From positions 83,734 through 147,733 of the forward strand of contig JBGSRW010000006.1 in the NCBI GenBank assembly GCA_041737355.1: a DNA stretch of 64,000 bases, written 5' to 3'. Each line of letters opens with the position of its first letter. The stretch's first letter is position 1. Shown piece after piece: positions 19,488-59,459 of the stretch. Position numbers and translations under genes: made by a program. Below the pieces are notes generated by a model that saw nothing but the letters and a program-made list of their open reading frames with translations, searched no databases and was not told the DNA's origin. The DNA comes from Patescibacteria group bacterium. GTDB taxonomy: Bacteria; Patescibacteriota; Patescibacteriia; XYB2-FULL-38-15.

Positions 19488-20624
19488 TTAAGCCGCTTTT
19501 TCTTTTGCTTCTTCCGGAAAAAGATAAACCCCGTTGAAGGCCGCTTCAATCTCCCGGCGCGCCTCTTTCTCGTCGTAATTATCCGGCAATTTCTGCGTGG
19601 TGATCATTTCCTCAACTCTGGCCGTAAAATGCTGCCAAATAACTTCCGCGTCTTCGCCCAAAACATTAAAGCATTCGCGGAGAGCTGTTTTGGTTTTGTT
19701 GGATTGCAAAAAATCCTGTAATTTTTTCCCTATTTCCGGAGACAGCGTCGGGTCAAAAGCCTGATCCCCGAGCTTTTCCTTGTTGAACAGTTCCAGCGGC
19801 TCGGACCGCACGGCCAAAGTCGGAAATCTGTCTTTAATTCCAAAGGTGTCGTAAGTCAAACCGCGGCCGAAACTCAAACCGTTATCAATCGCGTGAGCCT
19901 TGCCGGCTTTGTCAACCATAAAATTTCCGCCATGCCGATCCTGACTCCCAATCAGGTAATCGAACAGGGCGATTTTTTGCGCTTCTTCTTCGCTAAGCCC
20001 GGCCTCCGGCCCTCCTTCGTCGTAAGTTTTGGCGTCCGGGATCCAAGCTTGGAACGAACCAACCCCCTGCTCGCCTTTTCGGACAACCGTCGGCGGGGTC
20101 ACATCCAGCCCCAAAGCCCGGTCGGCCATAAATGCCAGCCATTCTCTTTTAAAACTGCTCTTTGGCTCAATCCCCGGCCGCGGACTCAATTCTCCCTTTT
20201 CTCCCAAAACCACTTCCCCGTCAGCCGGCTTAAAAATTCCTTTTCTTTCCCCTTTTTCACCCAGACGCAAAATATATGATGCATTAATACCTTTGTGTTC
20301 GTCGCCCAACGCTTCAATCGGTTTACACGGCGGTTCGCAAGGTTTTGCTTCTTTCAATTCTTGAAGTTTATCCAGCTCTTCGGCAACCTGTTCCGCCGTC
20401 TCCGGCCCGCCCTCCATAATTTTCGCGCCGTAAAGAGCGCTCGTCAGCTGATCCATCCTTGAGAGAAGTCTGTCTTCTTCAATTCTTTTTTCCCGCTCCT
20501 TGGTTTCAGCTTCCTGCTTCCCGATATCCGAAACTTCCGGTTTTTTCTCCGGCACTTCCTTCCCTTCCGGCATTTTCATTTCTTCTATAAAAGCTTCAGG
20601 ATAGCTTGATTCTCTGTCAGCCAT
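19488..20624 (-). CDS. PI3/PI4-kinase-like atypical protein/lipid kinase domain protein
   Basis: 378 aa. An acidic coiled-coil N-terminus, then GIFKPADGE (beta3 Lys region), catalytic loop DRHGGNFMV (PI3/4K DRHxxN) and an IDNGLSF DFG-like activation segment. Confidence 0.55.
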   Translation of the reverse strand: MADRESSYPEAFIEEMKMPEGKEVPEKKPEVSDIGKQEAETKEREKRIEEDRLLSRMDQLTSALYGAKIMEGGPETAEQVAEELDKLQELKEAKPCEPPCKPIEALGDEHKGINASYILRLGEKGERKGIFKPADGEVVLGEKGELSPRPGIEPKSSFKREWLAFMADRALGLDVTPPTVVRKGEQGVGSFQAWIPDAKTYDEGGPEAGLSEEEAQKIALFDYLIGSQDRHGGNFMVDKAGKAHAIDNGLSFGRGLTYDTFGIKDRFPTLAVRSEPLELFNKEKLGDQAFDPTLSPEIGKKLQDFLQSNKTKTALRECFNVLGEDAEVIWQHFTARVEEMITTQKLPDNYDEKEARREIEAAFNGVYLFPEEAKEKAA

Positions 20625-29772: not shown

Positions 29773-30234
29773 ATGGAAGGAACGAGCGGGAGCGGCCCGA
29801 AGCCGCAAAGAACCCGAGAAGATGTTATTCGTTCCCGTGGCGTAGCCATTCTGATGCAGATTGCCATGCCTGTGCTTCACGACCGGGGAAGCGACGACGA
29901 TCGTGGCCGGGCCACGAGATGCAAGCTCTTCGACGTCTACGCTGATCCCGAAGGCCGGATGGTCTTCGTTCTGGATATCGCCGACGACGACGAACGGGAT
30001 AGGATCATCGGCGGGGAACACCGACTTCATCTCTCGGCTCTCCAGATTCTCTTTTCCGTGTCGGTCCGTGACACTTTTCCGGTCGAAGAAAGGCAAAACG
30101 TTAACGTAATTGCCGGCATCCGCAATCCCGGCGACGGCTTGATCGTTTTCCCCCAGGAACTCGTCCCGGAGAGCGAGCTCGATCCGCTCGATCCGGAAGA
30201 CGAAGATGACGGGGAGGAAGACGGCGACGCGTAG
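29773..30234 (+). CDS. Hypothetical protein with an acidic C-terminal tail, GC-rich islet 2
   Basis: 153 aa with RBS GGGAGG and a candidate promoter TTGACA-17-TAAGCT at 29686. It is GC-rich unlike the flanks, and ends with EDEDDGEEDGDA. The antisense ORF 29707..30240 is judged spurious. Confidence 0.5.
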   Translation: MEGTSGSGPKPQRTREDVIRSRGVAILMQIAMPVLHDRGSDDDRGRATRCKLFDVYADPEGRMVFVLDIADDDERDRIIGGEHRLHLSALQILFSVSVRDTFPVEERQNVNVIAGIRNPGDGLIVFPQELVPESELDPLDPEDEDDGEEDGDA

Positions 30235-33509: not shown

Positions 33510-33929
33510 TTAAAGCAGAGAATCGAGACAACGCAGGTAAATCATCCTAATCTCCTGACGCGAGATAAGCTGGTTCGCGGTCATTCCCGGACCGATGGCG
33601 TGATACCAGCGCAATTCCAAATCACCGCATTTGAAATTGGGCCGTTTGATGGCGCACAATCCGTGGTGCAGGCCGGTCCCCACGCCGCAGGTGCATTTGC
33701 CCCAATGGTAAGGGCGCATTTCGAAAACGCCGTTCTCAAAGTCAATACCTCCGGTGACTCCGCTTTCTTCGTCGGGAATGCCCTTTCCGAGTTCGGCAAG
33801 AAGAAAAGCAATATCCTTAATAGTAGCGCTCGCGAACTCGCCAGCCTCGTCGCCAAATTCCCATTCGCCGTGGAAATTCCGGGCCATCTCGGTGGGCCAT
33901 TCGCTTGATCGGATGCCCCTGCCCTCCAT
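33510..33929 (-). CDS. Hypothetical Cys/His-containing protein, GC-rich islet 3 gene D
   Basis: 139 aa with RBS GGGAGG 7 nt before the ATG; contains HWGKCTCGVGTGLHHGLC; GC-rich. The antisense ORF 33459..33908 is judged spurious. Confidence 0.55.
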   Translation of the reverse strand: MEGRGIRSSEWPTEMARNFHGEWEFGDEAGEFASATIKDIAFLLAELGKGIPDEESGVTGGIDFENGVFEMRPYHWGKCTCGVGTGLHHGLCAIKRPNFKCGDLELRWYHAIGPGMTANQLISRQEIRMIYLRCLDSLL

Positions 33930-34063: not shown

Positions 34064-34690
34064 CTATCGCCGCGGCGCAACCGGGGGAACCCGGATACCG
34101 CGCCGGTCGCGCTGACTCAGGCCGCCGATCTCCTCGTCATCGGCCCGATTTCCTCCGCGCATCATCCATTCGAGGCCCCGCATGGCCATCACTTCTTCGA
34201 CCGAAACCTTCTTGTGCTCGGGACATCCACGTCTAGAGCAGACTTGGATCATCCCGGAAGAGCCGTCCCGGACGTAGAGCGACTTGATACCGACCATCTT
34301 GGCGTTGCAGGTACAGTACGCCACGGTCGGCAGACTTGCACCGCACCACGGACAGAAGAGATCGAGCACTTCACCTTCCCTGATCTCGGGCTCGGAGCGA
34401 ACCGTGCGGCCGCCCCAAGCGGCCGAAACGTGGAGAACGTGATCGCCATCCCGCAGCGCCTCGTTCATGTAACGCCAGCCGATCTTGATTGCCGGATGGC
34501 CGTCGATCTCGCGGACCGGATCGACTAGCCCAATCCCGCAGGCCGGCAAGGGGCAGGCGGCAATGATAATGTTGCCCTGCTGTCCCAAGCGCGCGCACTC
34601 CTTGCAGTGAAGGCCGTCCGGACGAAGTTCCAGAAGACCGCCATGCAAGACGCAAACCCTCGTCTCCTCCCTTTTTCCCTGCATTTCCAC
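34064..34690 (-). CDS. Cys-rich (multi-CxxC) protein, GC-rich islet 3 gene C
   Basis: 208 aa with the perfect SD AAGGAGGTG 5 nt before the ATG; motifs CKECARLG, CPLPACG, CPWCGAS, CTCNAKM, CSRRGCPEH; Arg-rich C-terminus. Confidence 0.6.
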   Translation of the reverse strand: MEMQGKREETRVCVLHGGLLELRPDGLHCKECARLGQQGNIIIAACPLPACGIGLVDPVREIDGHPAIKIGWRYMNEALRDGDHVLHVSAAWGGRTVRSEPEIREGEVLDLFCPWCGASLPTVAYCTCNAKMVGIKSLYVRDGSSGMIQVCSRRGCPEHKKVSVEEVMAMRGLEWMMRGGNRADDEEIGGLSQRDRRGIRVPPVAPRR

Positions 34691-37032: not shown

Positions 37033-37527
37033 CTACGCAGCGTCCTTGCGGACGGCAAGGATTCTCTCGGGCCGAGGGCCTAGGTCGACCCCAGAGAAAT
37101 CTGGCGGATCGATCCCGCCGCCGGTGAAATCATCACCGTTGAGGATCCGCTCGCCTTCGTGGTATGAGAGAAAAGGGAAGACGTGTCCGCCGTCAGGATC
37201 CGCCCAACGCGAGCCGATAACCACGATTTGGAACTCTCGCTGAAGTCCGGGATAGCGAGCACCAAGAGCTAGAAGATCTTCGATCTTGGCAGGTCGGAGG
37301 CCGTGGCGGTCAAGTTCGGCAATGACCTCACTAGCCGAACGGGGAGAGTACTTGGGGTCATCGGGAACGCGGGCAAGGAGGAGCTCACGCTCCACCTTGC
37401 CCTCACCCGTGATGGGGAAGCGGTCGGAGGAGACGCTGGGGAACACGTCATCGTAATTGCCAGCAGCGACCATCGCTTCGAACGTCTGGCCGTAGTCCAC
37501 CGTGACCTTGTAGGTCCTCTTCTTCAT
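37033..37527 (-). CDS. Hypothetical protein, GC-rich islet 4
   Basis: Trimmed to ATG at 37527 (MKKRTYKVTVDYGQTF...) with RBS GGGAAGG; 164 aa; GC-rich versus flanks; no recognizable domain. Confidence 0.5.
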   Translation of the reverse strand: MKKRTYKVTVDYGQTFEAMVAAGNYDDVFPSVSSDRFPITGEGKVERELLLARVPDDPKYSPRSASEVIAELDRHGLRPAKIEDLLALGARYPGLQREFQIVVIGSRWADPDGGHVFPFLSYHEGERILNGDDFTGGGIDPPDFSGVDLGPRPERILAVRKDAA

Positions 37528-46667: not shown

Positions 46668-47585
46668 ATGCCAGATTTGAATACTTTAACCACCGAATTC
46701 CTCGAATACCTGGAAATAGAGAAAAACCGATCCAACCAGACCGTGCGGAATTATAATTTCTATCTGAAACGCTTTGCCCAATGGGCCGGAAACGTCTCGG
46801 CCGCCGGGATTACCCAGGACATGGTCCGCCAATACCGCCTCTGGCTGAACCGTTTTGCCGACGACAAGGGCCGAACGCTCAAAAAAAACACCCAAAACTA
46901 TCATCTGATCGCCCTGCGCGCCTTCTTGAAATATCTTGCCAAGCGCGACATCAAAACCTTATCGGCGGAAAAGATAGAATTAGGCAAAATGCCGGAAAGA
47001 ATCGTTGATTTTTTGGAAGGGCCCGACCTTGAACGGCTGCTTGAAACCCCGACCCTTGCCGACTCCCCGGAAATTATCAAAAAAAGAGACAAGGCAATCC
47101 TCGAAATGCTGTTTTCCACCGGATTACGCGTTTCGGAACTGGCCAATTTGAAAAAAGAACAGGTAAATTTGAAAAAAGAAGAATTTACGGTCCGCGGCAA
47201 AGGTGACAAACCCCGGGTTGTCTTCCTCTCAAACCAATCAAAATACTGGCTCGGACAATATCTGGCCGCCCGACGCGACATGTCACCGTATTTATTCGTT
47301 TCCCACGACCGGGCACACGAAAGCGAGGGGGCCCTCACTCCCAGAAGCGTGGAACGGCTCGTCAAAAAATACTCCAAGGCCGCCGGCATCACCAAAAAAG
47401 TTACGCCGCATACCATGAGGCATTCTTATGCCACTGATTTACTGATGAACGGCGCCGATATCCGCTCGGTCCAGGCAATGCTTGGTCACTCTTCAATTAC
47501 TACCACTCAAATTTACACCCATATTACCAATCAGCAGCTTCGCGATGTCCACAAAGCCTTTCACGGACGGAAACGAAACAAATAA
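46668..47585 (+). CDS. Tyrosine recombinase, XerC/XerD family
   Basis: 305 aa with an N-terminal SAM-like core-binding domain (FLEYLEIEKNRSNQTVRNYNFYLKRF) and a catalytic domain with the R...HxxR...Y motifs (HTMRHSYATDLLMNGADIRSVQAMLGHSSITTTQIYTH). Confidence 0.85.
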   Translation: MPDLNTLTTEFLEYLEIEKNRSNQTVRNYNFYLKRFAQWAGNVSAAGITQDMVRQYRLWLNRFADDKGRTLKKNTQNYHLIALRAFLKYLAKRDIKTLSAEKIELGKMPERIVDFLEGPDLERLLETPTLADSPEIIKKRDKAILEMLFSTGLRVSELANLKKEQVNLKKEEFTVRGKGDKPRVVFLSNQSKYWLGQYLAARRDMSPYLFVSHDRAHESEGALTPRSVERLVKKYSKAAGITKKVTPHTMRHSYATDLLMNGADIRSVQAMLGHSSITTTQIYTHITNQQLRDVHKAFHGRKRNK

Positions 47586-47590
47586 CCGGG

Positions 47591-47619
47591 TTGACAATTA
47601 AAAATTTCCTTGGTAAACT
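47591..47619 (+). promoter_or_regulatory. Sigma-70-like promoter for the tRNA-Arg/tRNA-His operon
   Basis: TTGACA-17 nt-TAAACT, about 15 nt upstream of tRNA-Arg. Confidence 0.4.
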
Positions 47620-47633
47620 GAAAAATACTTTTC

Positions 47634-47708
47634 GGCCCCGTAGTTTAATGGATAGAACACTAGCCTTCTAAGCTGGATATCGAGGTTCGATTCCTCGCGG
47701 GGTCACCA
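47634..47708 (+). tRNA. tRNA-Arg (anticodon TCT), CCA encoded
   Basis: GGCCCCG TA GTTTAATGGATAGAAC A CTAGC CTTCTAA GCTGG ... GAGGTTCGATTCCTC GCGGGGTC A CCA. Confidence 0.85.
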
Positions 47709-47709
47709 T

Positions 47710-47781
47710 GGTGGCTATAGTTTAACGGTAGAACAGTGGGTTGTGGTCCCACTAGCCTGGGTTCAACTCCCAGTAGCCACC
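47710..47781 (+). tRNA. tRNA-His (anticodon GTG) with encoded G-1 and C73 discriminator
   Basis: G(-1)GTGGCTA ... anticodon stem GTGGG/CCCAC with loop TTGTGGT ... T-arm GGGTTCAACTCCC ... TAGCCAC C. It starts 2 nt after the CCA of tRNA-Arg; no CCA encoded. Confidence 0.85.
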
Positions 47782-47789
47782 CCTCAAAG

Positions 47790-47818
47790 CACTCTGCCCA
47801 TCGGCAGGGTGTTTTGTA
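47790..47818 (+). terminator. Candidate terminator after the tRNA pair
   Basis: CTGCC-catc-GGCAG(GG) hairpin followed by GTTTTG. Confidence 0.4.
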
Positions 47819-47905
47819 TTATAGGAAAATAATATATCAAAAAATGAACTATAAAATCCGCTCGGCTGAGCGGATTTTTAATATATTAGCACTGAGTTCT
47901 TCGGC

Positions 47906-50338
47906 TTATCCAGCCACGGGCAGCTCAAACCAGAACGTGCTTCCCTTACCCTCTTCCGAGGTGAGGCCTATTTTGCCGCCGTGAGTCTCGATGATACTCT
48001 TAGACAGGTACAGGCCAAGGCCGACTCCGTTAGGCTTCATGGCCACGGCGTTCGAGCCGCGAGAGAAGCGACTAAAAATATGCGCCTGCTCGGCCTTCGG
48101 TACGCCGACGCCGTTATCACTAACCTCATAGCGCACCCTGCCGTCGGTCTTGAATATCCTGGCGGTAATCCACCCACCCTCTTTAGTATATGCGATGGCA
48201 TTATCGAGCAGACGGACAATTACTTCTCTGATGCGGGCTACGTCAATGTTCACCATTGTCCTTTGGTCACCGGGGAAATCATGGTTATGTTTCAGTTTCT
48301 TGATTTTGTAGCGCGGTTCGAGCGACAAGCAGGCGGAGCGGGCAATATCCTCAAAAACGGCCGGCCCTTTTTCCAATCGCATTTGGCCCTCTTCAATATC
48401 CATGGCCGTGAGTAAGTCGTCGATGCTTGTCACAACCTCGATATTCGCCTCATAAGCCATCCGAAGCATGTCTTGTTGCGCCTTTGTCAGTTTGCCAACC
48501 TTCTTACCCAACAACTCGTCTATGCTCCAACGAATCGCGCTCAAAGGCGTTCTTAATTGATGAGAAACGGTTTGGATAAACTTATTTTTGAGTACGTCCA
48601 GAGCCCGGACTTGTTCCTCGGCCTTTTGACGCCGAGAAATGTCACGAAAAACCCCGAGGAGATATTGCTTGCCGGCTGACATGAATTGCGCGGCATTGAC
48701 CTCCACAGGGACCCTCGATCCGTTCTTGGATAATACTTCCGTATTGAAGATGCCGATCTCTTTTTTAACCTGACTTTCGAAGCCCCTCATAGTATCTTCA
48801 ACACGGTCTTTCGGATGCAGCTCGTCGGCGGTCATTGTGAGAATCTTTTCCTTGGAAAATCCGATCAATTTAACGGCATTTCTGTTGCAATCGACCAATT
48901 TGCGCGTTTCAGAGTCGGCGACGAACACCGCGTCGGGAACATTCTCAAACAATTGTTCAAACCTTACCAATGCCTCTATTTTCTTCTCTTTCTGCTCTTC
49001 AACCAGCGCCTCATTCCTCCTGAGTTCGGTAATATTGCGCAGAGACGCGAGAAGGACCTTTCTGCCTCCCCAGTCCAAGGGAGTAAACATAACCGTGGTG
49101 AAGATGTCCGAACCGTCAACATGCCGGCACGTCCAATCAAAGTACGCCCCGCCCTCTCTTCGGACTTTAGCCACAAACTCTTTCAGGGCCTTCTCTGATG
49201 GCCGGCCGTCCAGTTGGATCGGGGCGGAAAAATCGAGGGGGTTCTTGCCGATAAGGTCTTCTTTTTTAGGATAACCAATCCTCCTCCATGCGGCGCCGTT
49301 GCTTTCAAGGATTTGCAGACTCGACGCGTCAAGTATCACTATGGAATCGTTCGATCCCTCAAAAAGAGACTTAAAATTCTCCTTTTCTTTTTCCAGATCA
49401 GCGGTCCTGACTTTGACGAGCGAATCAAGCCGTCGCCGGATGCCTCGCAAAACAAGGATATAGATTAAAACGACCGCGAAAAAGATAAATGATCCAGAAA
49501 TGAGATATCTCAACCAGCTCGGGAAAACCTCAACTCGCTCAACCAGACCGCCGAGGTGCCGCACAATAGCATTGTGATAAGCGCTGTTGCTGTCGTTTTT
49601 CATCTGCCGTAAATCGGCGTCGATGCGGCCGATCAAAATATCGTTCTTCTGGGCGCCCTTCGTAAACGCAAACCTGAGCTCCGCGGGATCAAAAATTATA
49701 TTCGAACGCTTGACGGCGTAATTCTTTTCGCTCGAAATACCGAACACCATGTTGACAACGCCGATATCCGCCTCCTTCTTATCCAATAGATCGAACACCT
49801 CGGCATATTCCTTGACACCAATAATCTCCGCCTTTATGCCAAAGGTGTCGATCAGGTTCTTGACCCCCAAGGGACCGTTGTAATGAATCCCGCTCTTCAG
49901 TATGGCGATACGCTTTCCCTCCAAGTCCGTCATGGACGCGATACTGATACCTTGCCGGGTATAGACCATCCCCCAATTAACCAATACCGTTTCTGAGTTG
50001 AAGTCGTATTTTTGCTTGCGCTCGTCGGACAAGGCAACGTCGGGCATGATATCTATCTCGTTCGCTTCAAGCCGCTTCAACCCCTCGTCCCAGGTACCTT
50101 GAACATATTCTAGTTTCCATCCTTCCGTGGCGGCAATCGCGTTCAAAATATCCGGAAAAAGTCCCTGGGCCACGCCGTTTCCGTCCATCCAAATTTTGGG
50201 GCTGTTGTCATAGGAGCCGACCCGTATCGTCAACTGTTCCCTGACTACCTGCGCGAACATTTTTGACGGCATAAAAAATCCTCCCAACAATAAAAGGAGG
50301 AACAATAAAATCCCGCTCTTTCTAAACAAATTAGACAT
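47906..50338 (-). CDS. Sensor histidine kinase with periplasmic solute-binding (SBP_bac_3-like) domain, PAS domains, HisKA and HATPase_c
   Basis: 810 aa with a signal/TM, an SBP-like domain (TIRVGSYDNSPKIWMDGNGVAQGLFPDILNAIAATEGWKLEYVQGTWDE), a TM, at least 2 PAS-like segments, the H-box VSHQLRTPL and G-boxes GVGLGLYLSKSIIETHGGKIGLTSEEGKGSTFWFELP; no adjacent response regulator. Confidence 0.85.
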   Translation of the reverse strand: MSNLFRKSGILLFLLLLLGGFFMPSKMFAQVVREQLTIRVGSYDNSPKIWMDGNGVAQGLFPDILNAIAATEGWKLEYVQGTWDEGLKRLEANEIDIMPDVALSDERKQKYDFNSETVLVNWGMVYTRQGISIASMTDLEGKRIAILKSGIHYNGPLGVKNLIDTFGIKAEIIGVKEYAEVFDLLDKKEADIGVVNMVFGISSEKNYAVKRSNIIFDPAELRFAFTKGAQKNDILIGRIDADLRQMKNDSNSAYHNAIVRHLGGLVERVEVFPSWLRYLISGSFIFFAVVLIYILVLRGIRRRLDSLVKVRTADLEKEKENFKSLFEGSNDSIVILDASSLQILESNGAAWRRIGYPKKEDLIGKNPLDFSAPIQLDGRPSEKALKEFVAKVRREGGAYFDWTCRHVDGSDIFTTVMFTPLDWGGRKVLLASLRNITELRRNEALVEEQKEKKIEALVRFEQLFENVPDAVFVADSETRKLVDCNRNAVKLIGFSKEKILTMTADELHPKDRVEDTMRGFESQVKKEIGIFNTEVLSKNGSRVPVEVNAAQFMSAGKQYLLGVFRDISRRQKAEEQVRALDVLKNKFIQTVSHQLRTPLSAIRWSIDELLGKKVGKLTKAQQDMLRMAYEANIEVVTSIDDLLTAMDIEEGQMRLEKGPAVFEDIARSACLSLEPRYKIKKLKHNHDFPGDQRTMVNIDVARIREVIVRLLDNAIAYTKEGGWITARIFKTDGRVRYEVSDNGVGVPKAEQAHIFSRFSRGSNAVAMKPNGVGLGLYLSKSIIETHGGKIGLTSEEGKGSTFWFELPVAG

Positions 50339-50478: not shown

Positions 50479-51258
50479 TTATTGCTGCTCTTTATCTTTG
50501 TCTTTTCTCCCCAATCTTTCAAAAGCTCTTAAGACTTCGAGCGGGATGGCAAAAACAATCGTGTTGGACTGGTCTGAACTGACATCGTTAATCGTACTCA
50601 AGGTGCGCAGATGAAGAGCGCCGTCAGAAGAAGACAAAGTATTCGCGGCCTTGGCTAAATTTTCCGCGGCAATAACTTCGCCTTCCGCCTTGATAATGAC
50701 TGATCTCTTTTCCCGTTCTGCCTCAGCCTGCTTGCCGATTACGCGCTTCATCTCTTCCGGTAAAGTTACGTCCTTCAACTCAACTGAACTGACTTCAATC
50801 CCCCAAGGGTCGGACGCCTTGTCAACGATTGCCCTGATTTTATTGGCGACCGCTTCGCGGCTGGAAAGAAGTTCATCCAGATTGACTTCGCCGACCGCGT
50901 TTCTCATGGTTGTCTGGGCAAGCTGAGAAACGGCATAATAAAAATTTTCTACTTCAATAATCACCTTGTCCGCTTCCCTGACTTTGTAATAAATCACCGC
51001 ATTTACTTTGACGGAAATGTTGTCTTTGGTAATCGCTTCCTGGTCGGGAACATCAACCGCCTTGATTCTCATATCGACTTTTTTGGCGGTTTGGAAAATC
51101 GGGATAACCAAACGCCAGCCCGGCATCATGATTTTGGTAAAACGTCCCATCGTGAACTTTACCCCCCGCTGGTATTGATTGATCTGGCGGATTGAGGCCA
51201 AAACAAGGGCCACGATGATGGACGCAACGGTAATAAGCGTGTTTACGTAAACTTCCAT
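50479..51258 (-). CDS. SPFH/band-7 (stomatin/prohibitin-like) membrane protein
   Basis: 259 aa with an N-terminal TM (LITVASIIVALVLASI), then QYQRGVKFTMGRF and an SPFH core with a coiled-coil C-terminus. Confidence 0.85.
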   Translation of the reverse strand: MEVYVNTLITVASIIVALVLASIRQINQYQRGVKFTMGRFTKIMMPGWRLVIPIFQTAKKVDMRIKAVDVPDQEAITKDNISVKVNAVIYYKVREADKVIIEVENFYYAVSQLAQTTMRNAVGEVNLDELLSSREAVANKIRAIVDKASDPWGIEVSSVELKDVTLPEEMKRVIGKQAEAEREKRSVIIKAEGEVIAAENLAKAANTLSSSDGALHLRTLSTINDVSSDQSNTIVFAIPLEVLRAFERLGRKDKDKEQQ

Positions 51259-51326
51259 AATTTTTTTGGTTAATGATTAGCAAAAGAATTGTAGCTTATT
51301 TATCCAAATAAATCAAGATAAAAAAG

Positions 51327-51360
51327 CCCCGGCAACGCGTGGCGCGGCCGGGACGGATTC
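51327..51360 (-). terminator. Candidate terminator downstream of the HD-domain gene
   Basis: Minus strand: GTCCCGGCCGCGCCACGCGTTGCCGGGGC followed by TTTTTTAT. Confidence 0.45.
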
Positions 51361-51367
51361 ATTCCTC

Positions 51368-52183
51368 CTACGCTTCGATCGCTTTCTTGATCTTCCTCGC
51401 GAACTCGCGCCGAACCGCCGCCGGATCGGAACTCCGGGAGGCCAGCTTACCAACAGCGCTCCGCAAGGCGCGGACCATGGCTTCGAGATCGGTTTCGGAG
51501 AGATGCCGGATCTTGCCTTCGGAAGCTTCCAGCGCCCAGGAATTGACCTTGAGCGTTCCCTCGATCCAGCTTTGAAGCTCGGCGTTGTAGATTTCTCCGA
51601 CCGAAGGGAATTCCCCGGCGTACTTCACGAGCGTCTCGTGGTGCCGGGCGAAAACCGAGATGAATTTCTCGTTACCGTGCCCGACGAACTCGAATAGGGC
51701 GTAAAGCACGTAATCGAGCTTTTCCATCGCGTCGAAAAATTTCGCCTCGACGCTTTCCGCCGGCAGGCAGTAGACCCGCCGCAGGAAGGATGCAAGGAAA
51801 CCGAGCCGGTCCATCTGGATCAGGGTTTCCTCGTGCTCGATCTGCTCGTAGACCTCCTCGATCCGCGGATCATGCTTGAAGACGTAGCGGATGTCACCGA
51901 TCGCCCCTTCCGAGAACTCGTGAATCACTGCGTGCGTCATGACCAAGAGCTCGTCGATCTTGTTCTTGCCGGCCTTCCGCTCAAGCTCAAGACAATAGGC
52001 CGCAAGCAGGGCAATGGAAAGCGAATGGTGTGCCGAGGTCTGCCGCTGGTGGCGGTTCGGGTAGCCCTCCCACCTTCCGCAGCGCAGCAGACGGTCGAAG
52101 ACGTCGAAGACGCCGCCGACGAACTTGGCCATCTCAAGACGCCTCTCCAGGGCGGGGTCTTTGTTCTTGCCGCAATCATCCAT
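51368..52183 (-). CDS. HD-superfamily phosphohydrolase, YfbR-like (5'-deoxynucleotidase-like); GC-rich
   Basis: 271 aa: YPNRHQRQTSAHHSLSIALLAAY and VMTHAVIHEFSEGAIGDI align with the YfbR His...HD motifs, but the usual HD reads HE here; GC-rich codon usage. Confidence 0.55.
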   Translation of the reverse strand: MDDCGKNKDPALERRLEMAKFVGGVFDVFDRLLRCGRWEGYPNRHQRQTSAHHSLSIALLAAYCLELERKAGKNKIDELLVMTHAVIHEFSEGAIGDIRYVFKHDPRIEEVYEQIEHEETLIQMDRLGFLASFLRRVYCLPAESVEAKFFDAMEKLDYVLYALFEFVGHGNEKFISVFARHHETLVKYAGEFPSVGEIYNAELQSWIEGTLKVNSWALEASEGKIRHLSETDLEAMVRALRSAVGKLASRSSDPAAVRREFARKIKKAIEA

Positions 52184-52286
52184 CTTTCTCCTCCCTTTCC
52201 TGGTTTTGTTTTTCCCAATATCTCTTTCGGGTTTGGATAAGTTTAGGAAATAAAGAAACTAATGTCAAACAAAGTCATCCACACCT

Positions 52287-52315
52287 TTGACATGGCTAAA
52301 AATCTTTGGTATATT
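52287..52315 (+). promoter_or_regulatory. Near-consensus sigma-70 promoter TTGACA-17 nt-TATATT
   Basis: TTGACA at 52287-92, a 17-nt spacer, TATATT at 52310-15. Confidence 0.45.
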
Positions 52316-52347
52316 TAAAATACTTTAATCACTAATCCAATAAAAAT

Positions 52348-52464
52348 ATGGGACAAAATAGCGCGGCGAAAGCCAGAACAAAACACGCTCTCAAAAATAC
52401 CAAAAAGGGCAAACAATTGCGCAAACACACCAAGAGATTAAAGCCTTGTACCTGCTGTTCTTAA
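52348..52464 (+). CDS. Candidate 38-aa highly basic small protein (MGQNSAAKARTKHALKNTKKGKQLRKHTKRLKPCTCCS)
   Basis: A small ORF between the strong promoter (52287-315) and a strong terminator (52481-509); no SD; ends in CTCC; below the ORF-track length cutoff. Confidence 0.25.
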   Translation: MGQNSAAKARTKHALKNTKKGKQLRKHTKRLKPCTCCS

Positions 52465-52480
52465 TAAAAAATAGCTCAAG

Positions 52481-52509
52481 AAAAAAAGAGGCCGCTTGGC
52501 CTCTTTTTG
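52481..52509 (+). terminator. Rho-independent terminator
   Basis: A7-AGAGGCC-gctt-GGCCTCT-TTTTT. Confidence 0.65.
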
Positions 52510-52605
52510 TTTCTGCTCTACTCCCAGGCACTTGACGGACGGCCTGATTTTATTTAAACTTAATTTTCGTTCTGATAAAATATAGGTGAGGAAGGGAGGA
52601 CCGGA

Positions 52606-53364
52606 ATGAAGACAAAAATGACGTACCTGGCCATTTTTGCCGTGCTTTGCGGCTGCCGCAACGAATTCATTGACCTGACTCGGGAGGAATACGGGGTCGT
52701 TACCCAAATCATGATCCGTCCCGACTTCCCCGAGGGAGACGGCTCAATCGCCGTCCCCAAGGGGGACCAATCAAACACGGCGAATTACAAACTGAGGGCG
52801 TACGTCTACAACCACGACGGCATGCCCTTGTACCGGCCGATCGATTGGCGGGTTTCCGACCCGGCCCTGGTCGAACTCATGCCGGAAACCGACGACCCTC
52901 CGACCCACGAAGCCAGAGCCGCCATCCGGACTCTCCAAGACGTCTTCGACGCGGAAGGCGAAACCGAACCGGAAGCCACGATCACGGCCTGCGTCACGAA
53001 CGACTGCGAAGGATACGGCGGAGAAGTCGTCTGCGAACCGGAAATTTGCAGCGCGCCGATTACCGTGAAAGGCGTCGTGAATGCCGAAGGGGCTTGGGAA
53101 CTCTCGGGCGCGACTTTCCCCTTCACGGTGGCAATCTACACCAGCCAGACCGGACGGACGCTCGACGCAATCTCGAGCTATTACGAGCCGGAAATCCACG
53201 GCAACCAGATCAATTTCTCGGCTGGCAGCACAAGCTACGTCGGCCACTTCACCGACCGGACGCGCGTCACGGGCGAAGCGATTGTCTCCCCGAGCGGCGA
53301 CAATCTCGGAACCTGGACAGCGGTAAAGTGTCCGGACACCGGCTGCACCGGCGCCGGGCCATAG
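52606..53364 (+). CDS. Predicted lipoprotein, GC-rich
   Basis: 252 aa with the lipobox FAVLCGC at residues 12-18 and RBS GGAAGGGAGG; many Cys in the mature part (CVTNDCEGYGGEVVCEPEICS, CPDTGCTG). The overlapping ORFs 52771..53400(-) and 52845..53441(+) are judged spurious GC-driven frames. Confidence 0.55.
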   Translation: MKTKMTYLAIFAVLCGCRNEFIDLTREEYGVVTQIMIRPDFPEGDGSIAVPKGDQSNTANYKLRAYVYNHDGMPLYRPIDWRVSDPALVELMPETDDPPTHEARAAIRTLQDVFDAEGETEPEATITACVTNDCEGYGGEVVCEPEICSAPITVKGVVNAEGAWELSGATFPFTVAIYTSQTGRTLDAISSYYEPEIHGNQINFSAGSTSYVGHFTDRTRVTGEAIVSPSGDNLGTWTAVKCPDTGCTGAGP

Positions 53365-53411
53365 CTGACTTCCATCGTGCCGGAACATCGGTTCCGGCAA
53401 CCCACATCACG

Positions 53412-53445
53412 CTTTGGTGTGGGTATTTTTTTATAAAATAAAAAA
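53412..53445 (+). terminator. Candidate terminator after the lipoprotein gene
   Basis: CCCACA-tcacgctttgg-TGTGGG followed by TATTTTTTT; preceded by an 8-bp perfect hairpin GCCGGAAC-atcg-GTTCCGGC (53378-97). Confidence 0.45.
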
Positions 53446-53479
53446 AGCCGGGCACGCAAGGTGTCCGGCGAACTGAAAA

Positions 53480-54343
53480 CTACAAAGGCTTCAAGCTGAC
53501 CACGGTGTTCTCACGCCGCGTCACGGCATCCTCCAGCCGTTTCTTGAAAGCCATCAACTCCCCGTTTTTCTCGAGAGCCGGATTTTTCTGGATGATCTGG
53601 CGAAACTCGTCGAGCATCGCCGCCAGTTCCTTATCTCGCCGCTCCATCAGGCGTACGAGCGACTGGTTGCTCGAACGTTCGGTCTGAAGCCTAGCCCTCA
53701 AATCTACTGGATCCAGGACGGGCGCCACGCCTTTCCGCAAAGGCGGCGGCGGAGCCGCGGCGGGACGCGGCGGAAATTTGGACAGCAGTTCTTTAGCTGC
53801 CAGTTCTTCCTGCGTCTCTCGCAGCGCCCGGCGCAGTTGGTTGGTAGTTGTATCAACCCGATCAATCTCCATCTTGGTACGCTTGAGCGCTTCCGAAGTC
53901 TGTTTGGCCACTCTGGCCTGAAGGCGCAAAAACCCTGTCAGGCTCCCTCGCCCCATGATGGAAATTAGCCCGTCTTCGTCGAGCCAGACAAGATTGGTCG
54001 GCTCAACGACTCTGGCGGCCTTTGTGTAGATGGGATGCTCTCTACGCAGAAGCAGCTCGTCTACGCCCAAGAGTTCCTGGGATATCGCCGTGGCAACCAC
54101 CTCGCCGGCAACGATAATTTCTACCTTGCCGAGAACGATATAGCAGCAACGATTGACTTCCTCGCCCTCCTGGAAAATCCAAGTCCCTGGCTGCTTTTCC
54201 ACGACAACGAGATGCTGATCGAGGAGCTTTATGAGATGCGGCCGGCCTTTGGTCAAATCTTCCAAAGTGTCGCGGCCGTCCTCGCTTCCCCCTCCGTTCT
54301 CCCCGGCACTTTCGCCGCAATCTTTGGTTTCCTCTCCCATCAC
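53480..54343 (-). CDS. Cyclic-nucleotide-binding (cNMP/CAP-like) domain protein with C-terminal coiled-coil and Pro-rich segment; GC-rich
   Basis: Trimmed to ATG at 54343 (MGEETKDCGES...) with RBS GAGGAGGG 6 nt upstream. The cNMP-binding beta-roll is WIFQEGEEVNRCCYIVLGKVEIIVAGEVVATAISQELLGVDELLL; then a long coiled-coil and PPRPAAAPPPPL. Confidence 0.6.
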   Translation of the reverse strand: MMGEETKDCGESAGENGGGSEDGRDTLEDLTKGRPHLIKLLDQHLVVVEKQPGTWIFQEGEEVNRCCYIVLGKVEIIVAGEVVATAISQELLGVDELLLRREHPIYTKAARVVEPTNLVWLDEDGLISIMGRGSLTGFLRLQARVAKQTSEALKRTKMEIDRVDTTTNQLRRALRETQEELAAKELLSKFPPRPAAAPPPPLRKGVAPVLDPVDLRARLQTERSSNQSLVRLMERRDKELAAMLDEFRQIIQKNPALEKNGELMAFKKRLEDAVTRRENTVVSLKPL

Positions 54344-54419
54344 CAACCCTCCTCGAAAAGACGATTTACTATTTTGTAGCAAAAAACCTTTTTTGTCAAG
54401 CGTCTTTATCTTACTACCG

Positions 54420-54448
54420 TTGACAAAAATAAAATTTTTTGTTATATT
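54420..54448 (+). promoter_or_regulatory. Sigma-70-like promoter upstream of uvrB
   Basis: TTGACA-17 nt-TATATT, about 85 nt before the uvrB ATG. Confidence 0.35.
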
Positions 54449-54534
54449 AACTCTACAATAAGTAACGGTCAAATCACCATTACTCTACATATCTGCCCCA
54501 CTCCCGCCTAAGCGGGACGGCTTTTGGGGGCTTT

Positions 54535-56547
54535 TTGGCATATATGGATAAATTTAAACTCAAGGCAAAATTCAAAACGGCCGGCGACCAGCCTAAAGCA
54601 GTGGCCGAGCTTGTTAATGGTTTGGAAAAAAATTATAAACACCAGACTCTTTTAGGCGTAACCGGTTCGGGCAAAACTTTTACCGTGGCAAATGTTATTG
54701 AAAAAATCAACAAACCGACTCTGGTGATCGCCCACAACAAAACTCTGGCTGCCCAGCTTTGCAACGAGTTCCGCGAATTTTTCCCGGACAATGCCGTGGA
54801 ATATTTTGTTTCCTATTATGATTATTACCAACCGGAAGCATATCTCCCTCGCACCGATACCTACATTGAAAAAGAAGCAATGATCAACGACGAGATCGAC
54901 CGCCTGCGCCATGCCGCGACACAGGCCCTCTTAACCCGCCGCGACGTGATTATTGTCGCCTCCGTTTCCTGCATCTACGGTTTGGGCGCGCCGGAAACCT
55001 ACGAAAAAATTGTTTTGCATCTGGCTAAAGGGCAAACCATCACCCGTTCGGATCTTTTAGAGCAACTTGTAACCATGCAATTTAACCGGACCAATTCCAG
55101 TCTGAAACGCGGCGAGTTCCGCTTACGCGGAGAAACTTTGGAAATAATGCCAGTGAGCCAAGAAACGATTTACCGGATCGAGATGGCAAACCAAAAAGTT
55201 AAAAAAATTATTGAACTTGATCCGGTGACAAGAAAAATTAAAAAAGAGATGAATGACGTCTGGGTTTACCCGGCCAAACATTTTGTCACTCTGGGTCCGG
55301 AACGGGAACGGGCTTTCAAATCAATCAAAGCCGAACTTAAAGACCGCCTGGAATATTTTAATAAAAACGGAAAACTGCTTGAAGCCGAGCGCTTGGAACG
55401 CCGAACCAATTATGATTTGGAAATGATAAAAGAAGTCGGCTACTGCCATGGGATTGAAAATTATTCGCGGCATCTTTCCGGCCGGGCCGCCGGCGAGCCG
55501 CCTGAAACCCTGCTCGATTATTTTGGAAAGGGCAAGGATTGGCTAATGGTGATAGACGAATCGCATGTTACCGTTCCGCAACTTTCCGGCATGTACGAAG
55601 GCGACGCCTCCCGAAAACGCGCGCTGATTGAATTTGGCTTCAGATTACCAAGCGCCGCCGACAACCGGCCGCTGAAATTCCCCGAGTTTGAAACGCGGAT
55701 GCCCCAGACAATTTATACCTCGGCCACTCCAAGCCAGTACGAGTTCGGTAAAAGCCAACAGGTTGTTGAGCAAATTATCCGCCCGACCGGCCTGATTGAT
55801 CCGGAAATTATCGTCCAACCGATTACCCCGAAAAATAAAAACGAAAAATCTCAGGTTGACGATCTGATGGAAAGAATTGACGATCGGGTGGAACGCGGCG
55901 AACGAGTGCTTGTCACAACTCTAACCAAAAAAATGGCTGAAGATCTGTCCGATTATCTTGAAGAAAAAAAATTCAAAGTTAAATATCTCCATAGCGAAGT
56001 GGAAACCCTGGACCGCATTAAAATTTTAACCGAGTTCAGGCAGGGAAAATTCGATATTTTGGTCGGTGTCAACCTCCTGCGCGAAGGATTGGATTTGCCC
56101 GAAGTGACGCTCGTCGCGATTTTGGACGCCGACAAAGAGGGATTTTTGCGCAGTGAAACGTCGCTCATACAAACAATTGGACGAGCAGCCCGCAACGTCC
56201 GCGGCCAGGTTGTTCTTTATGCCGACCAGATGACCGGCTCAATGGACCGGGCAATAAACGAAACTTTACGCCGGCGCAAATTACAAATTGAATATAATGA
56301 AAAACACGGCATTACTCCGAAAACAATCAAAAAAGCAATTAAGGATATTATCGGCCAATTGACTAAAAAACAAGATGCCAAGGAAAAAAGAATTTTGGAA
56401 CTGGATTTACTCGGAGAAAAAGGAAAAAGCACCGAAGAAATTATTGCTGAAAAAGAAAAAGAAATGAAAGCCGCGGCCAAGGATTTACAGTTCGAACTGG
56501 CCGCGCTTCTTCGCGACGAAATCCGGGAATTAAAAAATAAAAAATAA
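54535..56547 (+). CDS. uvrB: Excinuclease ABC subunit B
   Basis: 670 aa: [24 protein letters not shown], Walker [11 protein letters not shown], helicase motifs and a C-terminal UVR domain ([17 protein letters not shown]). Confidence 0.95.
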
Positions 56548-59186: not shown

Positions 59187-59459
59187 TCATTTCCTGGTCT
59201 GGTAGGAATTCCATCCCGCCGGCAAGGAGATGCCACACTGGGTAAAAATAGCCGCTACTTCGTCGGTTACGCCAGCGCACTGTTTCGAGGAAAAATACTT
59301 GATCGCCGCCTGGATTCTCGCAGCCGCTGCCTGTTTGTTATCTGAAGCATGGACGATCCATTCGACATCAGGAACGAAGCAACCGGCCGCCGCGTCCCAA
59401 ACCACCAGGAAAAACCTGGTCGGGTTGAAAAGTGCCTCTTTGAGGCAGACAATTCTCAC
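59187..59459 (-). CDS. Hypothetical small protein, GC-rich islet 5
   Basis: 90 aa with a GTG start and RBS GGAGGTGA 5 nt upstream; GC-rich, inserted between uvrA and uvrC; no recognizable domain. Confidence 0.45.
   Translation of the reverse strand: MRIVCLKEALFNPTRFFLVVWDAAAGCFVPDVEWIVHASDNKQAAAARIQAAIKYFSSKQCAGVTDEVAAIFTQCGISLPAGWNSYQTRK

What the first reader, a model, noticed from the sequence alone, without database searches (positions are those of the whole stretch)
51360..54480. 3-kb GC-rich block: YfbR-like HD phosphohydrolase, Cys-rich lipoprotein and cNMP-binding coiled-coil protein, each with its own terminator
Three adjacent genes in -,+,- orientation all show GC-rich composition unlike the SPFH and uvrB flanks. 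Two of them suggest a nucleotide-signalling theme: an HD-domain nucleotidase-like enzyme, and a CAP/cNMP-binding domain fused to a long coiled-coil. That is unexpected for a reduced genome and may be an imported sensing/effector module. The lipoprotein mature domain is rich in paired Cys (likely disulfide-stabilised extracellular protein).
Basis: partly seen in the sequence, partly recalled or inferred. Interest (0 to 1): 0.5.

Follow-up and report, generated by a model that had tools for sequence, protein, structure and literature searches.

The report
Old, hypervariable GC-rich gene islet
Three unusually GC-rich genes next to uvrB in a tiny-genome (Patescibacteria) bacterium are not a recent import but an old, fixed-position accessory islet whose proteins change far faster than their neighbours while keeping their odd composition, for reasons still unknown.

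Summary
Three monocistronic genes in -,+,- order each have their own promoter, RBS and terminator: a YfbR-like HD hydrolase, a Cys-paired lipoprotein, and a CNB-fold/coiled-coil protein. Their GC3 is 0.66-0.78 against 0.51 +/- 0.045 for 42 other window genes.

- The GC excess is confined to the CDSs. Spacers are 38-40 % GC, and a fourth, highly conserved 38-aa basic protein gene of normal composition sits inside the block.
- The lipoprotein + CNB pair occupies the same Band_7/uvrB site in at least 9 related lineages. It is always about 0.2 GC3 above its flanks, so it is not a recent import.
- The HD gene is present in only 3 lineages. One relative lacks the whole islet.
- Block proteins are 21-81 % identical where the flanks are 83-96 % identical.
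- One CNB allele has dN greater than flank dS, which implies allele replacement.
- The CNB domain lacks the canonical cNMP-contact Glu and Arg. No cyclase or effector domain was found, so the nucleotide-signalling theme is unsupported.

I could not determine the cause of the persistent GC-richness. An ancient import still decaying and active maintenance fit the data equally well.

The parts
51368..52183 (-). YfbR/OxsA-like HD-domain phosphohydrolase gene (271 aa). It is the add-on present only in a subclade.
   Evidence: PF12917 at E 4.9e-13. PDB relatives are Lin2634 3mzo, OxsA 5tk6 and YfbR 2paq. H52/H53, H88, [D/E]89, E92, D97 and D157 are conserved in 9 family members. GC3 is 0.78. The gene is present in W, L003 and L005 only.
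51320..51354 (-). Intrinsic terminator of the HD gene
   Evidence: Hairpin of -23.1 kcal/mol, z -3.7, followed by UUUUUU.
52240..52268 (-). Sigma-70-like promoter of the HD gene; a GGAGG RBS lies at about 52192
   Evidence: TTGACA-17-TAAACT, 10 of 12 matches; sequence read.
52287..52315 (+). Promoter of the 38-aa ORF
   Evidence: TTGACA-17-TATATT with an extended -10 TG, 11 of 12 matches.
52348..52464 (+). Conserved 38-aa basic protein gene with a Cys-rich tail (MGQNSAAKARTKHALKNTKKGKQLRKHTKRLKPCTCCS); host-like composition
   Evidence: Present in all 9 long loci at 81-100 % aa identity. Variable nucleotide columns by codon position are 5/1/17, which indicates a coding sequence under purifying selection. 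No Pfam or NCBIfam hit.
52483..52508 (.). Bidirectional hairpin terminator after the 38-aa ORF
   Evidence: -18.6 and -17.8 kcal/mol on the two strands, with T-runs on both sides.
52553..52581 (+). Promoter-like site of the lipoprotein gene; a GGGAGG RBS lies at about 52593
   Evidence: TTTAAA-17-TAAAAT with TG; sequence read.
52606..53364 (+). Lipoprotein gene (252 aa): signal peptide and lipobox, an Ig-like domain, a disulfide-rich loop, and an 8-stranded beta-barrel
53378..53433 (+). Tandem hairpins and U-tract terminating the lipoprotein gene
   Evidence: -31.3 kcal/mol, z -6.6; also reported.
53440..53469 (-). Intrinsic terminator of the CNB-coiled-coil gene
   Evidence: Hairpin of -13 kcal/mol, z -3.1, followed by UUUUUUU.
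53480..54340 (-). CNB-fold (CRP/FNR-like sensor) and coiled-coil protein gene (286 aa)
   Evidence: PF00027 at 27.8 bits. AF2 model: barrel at residues 46-120, helix 132-186, Pro-rich disordered linker, helical hairpin 211-278. Foldseek E about 3e-8 to CRP, HCN and CNG CNB domains. No HTH or other effector domain. Only about 10 full-length relatives among 1.84 billion representatives.
54371..54399 (-). Promoter of the CNB gene; a GGAGG RBS lies at about 54350
   Evidence: TTGACA-17-CAAAAT; sequence read.
51310..54412 (.). Approximate extent of the islet relative to the empty site in relative L009
   Evidence: In L009 the Band_7 start and the uvrB promoter are about 220 bp apart. Its sequence matches the window up to about 51305 on the left and again from about 54415 on the right.

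Best explanation
This is a clade-specific accessory islet, inherited in place but hypervariable. It lies between the Band_7 (SPFH) gene and uvrB in a genus-level group of Patescibacteria.

It consists of four independent single-gene transcription units:
1. A surface lipoprotein, built from a variable Ig-like domain and a more conserved disulfide-braced beta-barrel. It most likely acts as an exposed binding protein at the cell's interface with a host or phage (inferred).
2. A cytoplasmic protein with a CNB-fold sensor domain followed by a long coiled coil. It has no DNA-binding or enzymatic output and lacks the canonical cNMP-contact residues. It is most likely a dimeric sensor or scaffold for a non-cNMP ligand (inferred).
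3. A strongly conserved 38-aa basic protein with a Cys-rich tail.
4. In one subclade only, a YfbR/OxsA-type HD phosphohydrolase with an intact metal site. It most likely dephosphorylates (deoxy)nucleotides for salvage or house-cleaning (inferred).

The lipoprotein and CNB genes always occur together, and their allele classes match each other. Both evolve 3- to 25-fold faster at the protein level than the flanking core genes. At least one CNB allele was swapped in by recombination.

The GC-richness is restricted to the coding sequences and shared by all lineages and alleles. It is therefore a long-standing property of these genes, and of six other lineage-specific genes in the window, not a mark of recent transfer. 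What sustains it is unresolved.
For: Shown:
- Synteny Band_7 - (HD) - 38-aa ORF - lipoprotein - CNB - uvrB in 9 long loci from independent assemblies.
- GC3 of the lipoprotein and CNB genes is 0.58-0.77 against flank GC3 of 0.38-0.56 in every lineage.
- Spacers are 38-40 % GC, and the GC excess sits at third codon positions.
- Core proteins are 83-100 % identical, while the lipoprotein is 44-98 % and the CNB protein 21-99 %. The allele classes of the two genes are congruent.
- dN is 3-10 times that of the flanks at similar dS.
- Lipoprotein 4-fold-site divergence equals the flanks in several pairs, indicating fast protein evolution in situ.
- For the L026 allele, CNB dN divided by flank dS is 1.24-1.45, implying replacement.
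- L009 has an empty site.
- Separate promoters and terminators.
- The HD metal/catalytic residues are conserved.
- CNB fold without the PBC Glu and Arg.
- Lipoprotein fold.
- The families are tiny and clade-restricted: 8, 12 and 24 clusters out of 5.8 billion, and about 10 full-length CNB relatives out of 1.84 billion.
- No phage, plasmid or viral homologues.
Against: - All functional assignments rest on fold or family resemblance only. There are no expression or biochemical data.
- No domain reaches dN/dS above 1 (maximum 0.52), so relaxed constraint could explain much of the variability without diversifying selection.
- The congruence of lipoprotein and CNB alleles may reflect physical linkage only.
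- The claim that the composition is a stable property is not proven. My polarised-substitution test could not separate maintenance from slow decay of a very GC-rich ancestral import.
- The empty site rests on a single co-assembled MAG contig (L009).
- The other GC-rich window genes could not be compared across relatives.
Confidence: 0.55

Rival explanations
1. Recent horizontal import of a three-gene nucleotide-signalling (sensing/effector) module.
For: Atypical GC and GC3. HD and CNB domains are present. The islet is absent from L009.
Against: - Same site and same GC3 excess in at least 9 lineages whose synonymous sites differ by dS 0.75-1.8.
- The HD gene is missing in 6 of 9 lineages that carry the CNB gene.
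- The genes are separate, oppositely oriented units.
- The PBC Glu and Arg are absent.
- No cyclase among the scanned window ORFs.
- No border repeats or mobility genes.
- No homologues on phages, plasmids or viral contigs.
Confidence: 0.04
2. Ancient single import. The genes entered the clade's ancestor from a very GC-rich donor (GC3 about 0.9) and are still ameliorating. The present excess is a relic and nothing maintains it.
For: A simulation of this null on the flank-calibrated tree gives apparent W->S 0.41, S->W 0.23 and present GC3 0.67. The observed values are 0.44, 0.20 and about 0.7. S->W changes outnumber W->S, 75 against 41. Block GC3 tracks flank GC3 with a slope of about 0.6 (my estimate from the GC3 values), close to what decay predicts.
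Against: - It requires an ancestral GC3 of about 0.9, and the same for six other scattered single genes.
- CNB allele classes whose synonymous sites are near saturation all keep GC3 of 0.61-0.69.
- The internal spacers and the embedded 38-aa gene are host-like.
- No donor homologues were found in 5.8 billion or 1.84 billion proteins beyond the clade.
Confidence: 0.25
3. Recombination hot spot with GC-biased gene conversion. Frequent allele exchange at this locus raises both divergence and GC3.
For: There is evidence for allele replacement in the CNB gene, and its synonymous divergence is elevated (46/73 and 52/97 against about 0.40-0.44 in the flanks). Bacterial genes that recombine tend to have higher GC3 (Lassalle et al. 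2015, PMC4450053).
Against: - The 38-aa gene and the spacers embedded in the islet are not GC-enriched (GC3 0.34-0.47).
- The lipoprotein has flank-like dS in several pairs yet a GC3 of 0.6-0.76.
- To my recollection (not checked here), the effect reported in bacteria is only a few GC3 points, not +20.
Confidence: 0.1
4. An anti-phage defence cassette, for example a Pycsar-like CNB effector plus an HD dNTP- or nucleotide-degrading enzyme. Defence loci are typically variable and prone to loss.
For: Weak PADLOC hits of the CNB region to Pycsar TIR effectors and PycC (E 1e-4 to 6e-4). PycTIR appears in the PDB hit lists. A weak PHROG hit of the HD protein to dATP triphosphohydrolase (E 0.006). 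The locus is hypervariable and shows presence/absence variation.
Against: - The hits cover only the generic CNB fold.
- There is no TIR, TM or nuclease effector domain and no cyclase.
- The HD gene is absent in most lineages.
- The HD protein and the lipoprotein have no PADLOC hits.
- The PBC residues are missing.
Confidence: 0.05

Closest known systems
YfbR-like HD phosphohydrolases (Pfam PF12917; E. coli YfbR 2PAQ, Listeria Lin2634 3MZO, Bacillus OxsA 5TK6)
   Same: The HD-domain core aligns over about 160 residues. The His, His-Asp/Glu, Glu, Asp and Asp metal/catalytic positions are conserved.
   Different: Only 22.7 bits against the NCBIfam YfbR equivalog cut-off of 122, so it is not an orthologue. 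It carries an 80-residue C-terminal extension. The window copy reads H-E instead of H-D. The family has only 8 clusters, all in this clade.
CRP/FNR-superfamily sensor domains and other CNB-fold domains (DNR 2Z69/3DKW, M. tuberculosis CRP 3D0S, the KCNH CNB-homology domain 4F8A)
   Same: An eight-stranded beta-barrel followed by a dimerisation-type helix. Foldseek E about 3e-8; profile E 2e-7 to DNR.
   Different: There is no C-terminal HTH. Instead the protein has a 55-residue helix, a Pro-rich linker and a helical hairpin. The canonical PBC Glu and Arg are absent, which is also a known feature of KCNH CNB-homology domains and, to my knowledge, of DNR. A conserved N-terminal SEDGRDTLEDLTxGRP motif is present. 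The protein is hypervariable.
Replacement-type flexible genomic islands (Lopez-Perez et al. 2014, PMC4033161)
   Same: The chromosomal site is fixed and bounded by conserved core genes. Closely related genomes carry highly divergent versions at the same site. There is evidence for allele replacement by homologous recombination, and one product is surface-exposed.
   Different: This islet is tiny (2-4 genes, about 3 kb). The versions are homologous genes of the same architecture, not different gene sets. One of the two hypervariable products is cytoplasmic. All versions share the GC3 excess.
Bacterial Ig-like (Big_2 / invasin / S-layer SbsC) surface proteins and avidin/calycin-type beta-barrels
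   Different: No Pfam Big_2 or other sequence-family match. The particular two-domain combination with three conserved disulfides is restricted to this clade (24 clusters).

Membership tests
YfbR-like HD phosphohydrolase (PF12917) | Profile score above the Pfam gathering threshold | tested here: met
   49.6 bits against 25.9, E 4.9e-13.
YfbR-like HD phosphohydrolase (PF12917) | H...HD...D metal-binding and catalytic residues | tested here: met
   H52/H53, H88, E92, D97 and D157 are invariant. Position 89 is D in 7 of 9 sequences and E in the window copy and one other.
E. coli-type 5'-deoxynucleotidase YfbR (NCBIfam NF003009 equivalog) | Equivalog-level score | tested here: not met
   22.7 bits against a cut-off of 122.
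YfbR-like HD phosphohydrolase (PF12917) | Metal-dependent (d)NMP/NTP phosphohydrolase activity | not testable with these tools
   Needs an enzyme assay.
Cyclic-nucleotide-binding domain (PF00027) | CNB beta-barrel fold / profile score | tested here: met
   27.8 bits against 27.5, which is marginal. Alleles at the same site in L020 and L023 score 40-51 bits. Foldseek E about 3e-8.
Cyclic-nucleotide-binding domain (PF00027) | Phosphate-binding cassette with a conserved Glu (ribose 2'-OH) and Arg (cyclic phosphate) | tested here: not met
   G-E aligns to G-V, and P-R-[ST]-A aligns to P-x-Y-T (W class) or P-H-T-T (L020 class). Neither residue is conserved in any allele class.
CRP/FNR transcription factors | C-terminal helix-turn-helix DNA-binding domain | tested here: not met
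   No HTH family in Pfam. The model shows only a long helix, a disordered Pro-rich linker and a helical hairpin.
Pycsar / cyclic-nucleotide defence effectors | CNB domain fused to a TIR or TM effector, with an adjacent cyclase | tested here: not met
   Only weak CNB-region hits (E at or above 1e-4). No effector domain. No cyclase among the neighbours or the 10 scanned window ORFs.
Bacterial lipoprotein | Signal peptide ending in a lipobox with an invariant Cys | tested here: met
   Hydrophobic N-terminus and invariant G16-C17 in 24 sequences. Lipidation itself was not testable.
Recently acquired genomic island | Atypical composition | tested here: met
   GC3 z-scores of 3.5-6.2.
Recently acquired genomic island | Absent from close relatives, with mobility genes, a tRNA or direct repeats at the borders | tested here: not met
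   Present at the same site in at least 9 lineages and absent only in L009. No border repeats. The nearest integrase-family gene and tRNAs lie beyond the histidine kinase and Band_7; the integrase-family gene is itself conserved at 80-91 %.
Replacement flexible genomic island | Same site in all genomes, conserved flanks, highly divergent versions exchanged by recombination | tested here: met
   Identity matrices. CNB dN exceeds flank dS for the L026 allele. The lipoprotein mostly looks like in-situ divergence, so this feature is met for the CNB gene only.
Operon / co-transcribed functional module | Co-orientation and shared transcription signals | tested here: not met
   -,+,+,- orientation, with four promoter-like sites and four terminators.

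The most novel reading that the evidence does not exclude
These Patescibacteria may carry a distinct class of lineage-specific genes whose coding sequences alone are held at about +0.2 GC3 above the genome by a gene-specific force. Candidates are selection on codons or mRNA, or targeted recombination or conversion. Within this class, the lipoprotein and CNB-coiled-coil pair would be a co-diversifying 'specificity cassette', analogous to pherotype or agr-type hypervariable loci, that sets host or kin recognition in an episymbiont.
Probability: 0.15. Interest if true: 0.7.

Novelty: new variant of a known kind. Interest (0 to 1): 0.42.

Why it matters
Atypical GC content is routinely read as recent horizontal transfer. 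Here that inference fails. The same genes keep the same compositional offset at the same site across many lineages whose synonymous sites are heavily turned over, and the offset stops at the CDS boundaries.

If the offset is actively maintained, it points to an unrecognised gene-specific compositional force in ultra-small bacteria. It would also mark a set of fast-evolving genes, which are surface-exposed, sensor-like or Zn-ribbon proteins, as prime candidates for host or phage interaction in organisms that cannot yet be cultured.

If it is a decaying relic, it gives a calibrated example of how slowly amelioration proceeds.

In either case, the HD/CNB 'signalling module' should not be annotated as such.

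Tried and rejected
1. Polarised synonymous substitutions with outgroups suggested a block equilibrium GC3 of 0.69 against 0.44 for the flanks. A simulation then showed that a decaying GC3 = 0.9 import gives the same apparent counts. The test is inconclusive, so I do not use it as evidence.
2. Regressing block GC3 on flank GC3 across lineages gives a slope of about 0.6 (values). Both models fit this.
3. Domain-wise and sliding-window dN/dS in the lipoprotein never exceeds 1, so positive selection is not demonstrated.
4. Four-fold-site saturation between CNB allele classes is confounded by poor alignment at 22-30 % identity. I relied only on the well-aligned pairs and on dN compared with flank dS.
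5. Searches for a donor or vehicle found nothing: IMG/VR viral contigs with the lipoprotein and HD profiles, INPHARED phages and PLSDB plasmids with the HD protein, and the BFVD fold library with the CNB model.
6. PADLOC and PHROGs gave only weak, domain-level hits.
7. The Rfam scan of 51000-54800 gave nothing above noise.
8. The repeat search found no direct or inverted repeats bounding the islet. The similar promoter hits at 52.3 kb and 54.4 kb are independent consensus promoters, not a repeat.
9. There is no paralogy among the nine GC-rich ORFs.
11. Literature searches on CPR, GC-rich or hypervariable genes, CNB coiled-coil proteins and YfbR returned nothing relevant.
12. A cyclase could only be sought among 10 unidentified window ORFs.

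Full report
**1. The observation**

The window is 47.1 % GC. ORF listing and reading of the sequence show three genes at the reported place:
- an HD-domain gene at 51368-52183 (-)
- a lipoprotein gene at 52606-53364 (+)
- a CNB-domain gene (-) whose RBS-preceded start is at 54340, giving 286 aa. The public gene call on an identical Logan contig agrees.

Pfam confirms YfbR-like/HD_3 for the first gene (E 4.9e-13). It confirms cNMP_binding for the third only marginally, at 27.8 bits against a gathering threshold of 27.5. The lipoprotein has no family.

The three genes have GC3 of 0.78, 0.76 and 0.66. The 42 other genes average 0.506 +/- 0.045 with a maximum of 0.607, so z = 3.5-6.2.

Each gene has a sigma-70-like promoter, a GGAGG-type RBS and a stable hairpin/U-tract terminator.

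The lipoprotein family has an invariant G-C lipobox and six invariant mature-domain cysteines.

The description is therefore confirmed, with two corrections.
- The GC excess is confined to the coding sequences, mainly third codon positions (for example TTC 0.82 against 0.40, TAC 0.86 against 0.40). The spacers are 38-49 % GC.
- The 422-bp 'gap' contains a fourth gene.

**2. The fourth gene**

At 52348-52464 (+) there is a 38-aa ORF, MGQNSAAKARTKHALKNTKKGKQLRKHTKRLKPCTCCS. It lies between a near-consensus promoter (52287-52315) and a bidirectional terminator (52483-52508). It is found in every relative at 81-100 % identity. Variable nucleotide columns fall 5/1/17 on codon positions 1/2/3, so it is a protein under purifying selection. 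Its GC3 is host-like (0.34-0.47). It has no Pfam or NCBIfam match.

**3. Who carries the locus**

A scan of GTDB species representatives with UvrB places the window in Patescibacteria. The nearest named relative is 'Candidatus Liptonbacteria' at 67 % UvrB identity.

Homologue searches find only 8 (HD), 12 (CNB) and 24 (lipoprotein) clusters among 5.8 billion proteins. An exhaustive profile search of 1.84 billion representatives finds about 10 full-length CNB relatives. After those there is a cliff to generic CNB-domain-only matches.

Context look-ups and a metagenome scan give nine long loci from independent assemblies: W, L003, L005/6, L020, L023, L026, L027, L031 and L032. All have the order Band_7 - (HD) - 38-aa ORF - lipoprotein - CNB - uvrB - uvrA - uvrC.

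The HD gene is present only in W, L003 and L005. One MAG contig (L009; UvrB 92 %, Band_7 90 %) has Band_7 and uvrB about 220 bp apart, which is a clean empty site.

**4. Composition in relatives**

In every lineage the lipoprotein and CNB genes have GC3 of 0.58-0.77, while UvrA, UvrB and Band_7 have 0.38-0.56. This holds even in genomes of 41-45 % GC. Flank synonymous divergence between lineages is dS 0.75-1.8.

The block is ancestral at this site with the same compositional offset, and it is not a recent acquisition.

No border repeats, no adjacent mobility genes, and no phage, plasmid or viral homologues were found.

**5. Hypervariability**

Core proteins are 83-100 % identical among the nine lineages. 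The lipoprotein is 44-98 % identical and the CNB protein 21-99 %. There are at least four CNB allele classes, and they coincide with the lipoprotein groupings. For example, L026 against L027 gives UvrA 96 %, Band_7 96 %, lipoprotein 62 % and CNB 22 %. Every other window gene that can be compared is 67-95 % identical.

dN is 3-10 times that of the flanks, giving dN/dS of 0.15-0.46 against 0.04-0.11.

For the lipoprotein, 4-fold-site divergence equals the flanks in several pairs (0.36-0.43). The protein has therefore diverged quickly in situ. The Ig-like domain is more variable than the barrel (mean identity 0.53 against 0.70). No domain reaches dN/dS above 1 (maximum 0.52).

For the CNB gene, synonymous divergence exceeds the flanks even in well-aligned pairs (46/73 and 52/97 against about 0.40-0.44). 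For the L026 allele, dN is 1.24-1.45 times the flank dS of the same genome pairs. That is incompatible with constrained in-situ divergence and implies allele replacement, or less plausibly whole-protein positive selection.

**6. What the proteins are**

*HD protein.* The closest solved relatives are Lin2634, OxsA and YfbR. H52/H53, H88, E92, D97 and D157 are invariant, and position 89 is D or E. An active metal-dependent nucleotide phosphohydrolase is likely. It is not a YfbR orthologue, scoring 22.7 bits against an NCBIfam cut-off of 122. It also has an 80-residue C-terminal extension.

*CNB protein.* The AF2 model (pLDDT 76) shows:
- a disordered acidic N-terminus
- a conserved SEDGRDTLEDLTxGRP motif
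- a CNB barrel at residues 46-120
- a 55-residue helix
- a disordered Pro-rich linker
- a helical hairpin.

Foldseek matches the CNB domains of CRP, HCN and CNG proteins at E about 3e-8. There is no HTH or other output domain.

The canonical PBC G-E and P-R-[ST]-A are replaced by G-V and P-x-Y-T (P-H-T-T in the other allele class). The best full-domain PDB match is the DNR sensor domain, which to my knowledge does not bind cNMP. The domain is therefore a CNB-fold sensor of unknown ligand.

*Defence and cyclase checks.* PADLOC gives only weak CNB-region hits to Pycsar components. No cyclase-type domain occurs among 10 unidentified window ORFs.

**7. Why GC-rich?**

The window contains six more RBS-preceded, GC3-rich (0.63-0.78) ORFs: 17626-18303, 18314-18847, 29773-30234, 33510-33929, 34064-34684 and 37033-37527. 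None matches a family above threshold, and they are not paralogous to each other. The block therefore belongs to a class that makes up about 9 % of the window.

I tested whether the GC excess is decaying or maintained. Parsimony-polarised synonymous changes give, for the block, W->S 41/94 and S->W 75/374. For the flanks they give 469/2211 and 548/2041. That implies very different equilibria.

I then ran a simulation on a flank-calibrated tree. An unmaintained import with ancestral GC3 of about 0.9 reproduces these apparent numbers. The test is therefore inconclusive.

Arguments for maintenance:
- The offset stops at the CDS boundaries, and the embedded 38-aa gene is not enriched.
- Deeply diverged CNB alleles all keep GC3 of 0.61-0.69.
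- The relic model needs an ancestral GC3 of about 0.9 in several unlinked genes, with no detectable donor.

Arguments for a relic:
- There is a net excess of S->W changes.
- Block GC3 tracks flank GC3 with a slope of about 0.6 (values).

GC-biased gene conversion (Lassalle et al. 2015, PMC4450053) fits the recombination signal in the CNB gene. It does not fit the unenriched embedded gene or the flank-like dS of the lipoprotein.

**8. Comparison with known systems, and verdict**

At the domain level these are new, clade-restricted members of known folds.

At the locus level the closest concept is a replacement-type flexible genomic island (Lopez-Perez et al. 2014, PMC4033161). The match is a fixed site, conserved flanks, divergent versions and a surface-exposed product. 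This islet is miniature, and its versions are homologous genes that share a persistent compositional offset.

The 'imported nucleotide-signalling module' reading is not supported. The genes are better described as an old, hypervariable accessory islet of independent genes. The cause of the composition, and the function of the lipoprotein/CNB pair, remain open. I rate interest as moderate.

Noticed in passing
window 52348-52464 (+): A 38-aa, very basic protein with a C-terminal Cys cluster, carrying its own strong promoter and bidirectional terminator. It is 81-100 % conserved in all relatives and sits amid hypervariable neighbours. It has no family match. It could be a ribosome- or nucleic-acid-associated or metal-binding micro-protein.
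   Followed up: partly
window 17626-18303 (+), 18314-18847 (+), 29773-30234 (+), 33510-33929 (-), 34064-34684 (-), 37033-37527 (-): Six further RBS-preceded ORFs with GC3 of 0.63-0.78 (z 2.7-6.0). None reaches a Pfam or NCBIfam threshold. Two are Cys/Zn-ribbon-rich. They are not paralogous to each other or to the block. Together with the block they form a genome-wide class of GC-rich lineage-specific genes.
   Followed up: partly
window 54449-54543 (+); L009 560-655: The uvrB leader downstream of its consensus promoter contains a hairpin-forming element (CCCACTCCCGCCTAAGCGGGACGG...GGGGGCTTTTTGG). It is conserved in L009. It may be a regulatory leader.
   Followed up: no
window 46668-50338; L003 11774-20129; L005 13369-18364: The segment between Band_7 and a conserved XerC-like recombinase/S15/NYN block differs between relatives. 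The window has tRNA-Arg/His plus a SBP-PAS histidine kinase. L003 has hemerythrin, MsrAB, PAP2 and a sigma factor. L005 has DUF333 and others. This is a second variable region adjacent to the islet.
   Followed up: no
L005 10412-10984 (+) (= L006 11772-12344); L020 9601-9819 (-): Extra lineage-specific ORFs, of 190 aa and of 72 aa with GC3 0.74, lie in the spacer between the lipoprotein/38-aa gene and HD/Band_7. The spacer appears to be an insertion hot spot.
   Followed up: no
L032 5775-6519: The lipoprotein gene matches in two frames, with the shift at about 6112-6122. This is either a frameshifted pseudogene or an assembly error.
   Followed up: no
window 19488-20624 (-): A 378-aa protein with a PI3_PI4_kinase-family catalytic-loop match (E 1.8e-8, 35 bits against a cut-off of 27). 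This is unusual for a bacterium.
   Followed up: no
window ~59187-59459 (-) (L002 11511-11783): A 90-aa ORF without a family lies antisense between uvrA and uvrC. It is called at the same position in L003, L005 and L020. L020 and L023 also have a 98-aa ORF between uvrB and uvrA that the window lacks.
   Followed up: no
L009 (CAYZNO010000006.1), L010: The closest GTDB representatives are titled 'uncultured Gammaproteobacteria bacterium', although their UvrB, UvrA and Band_7 are 64-93 % identical to this Patescibacteria window. The record titles are probably placeholder mislabels.
   Followed up: no
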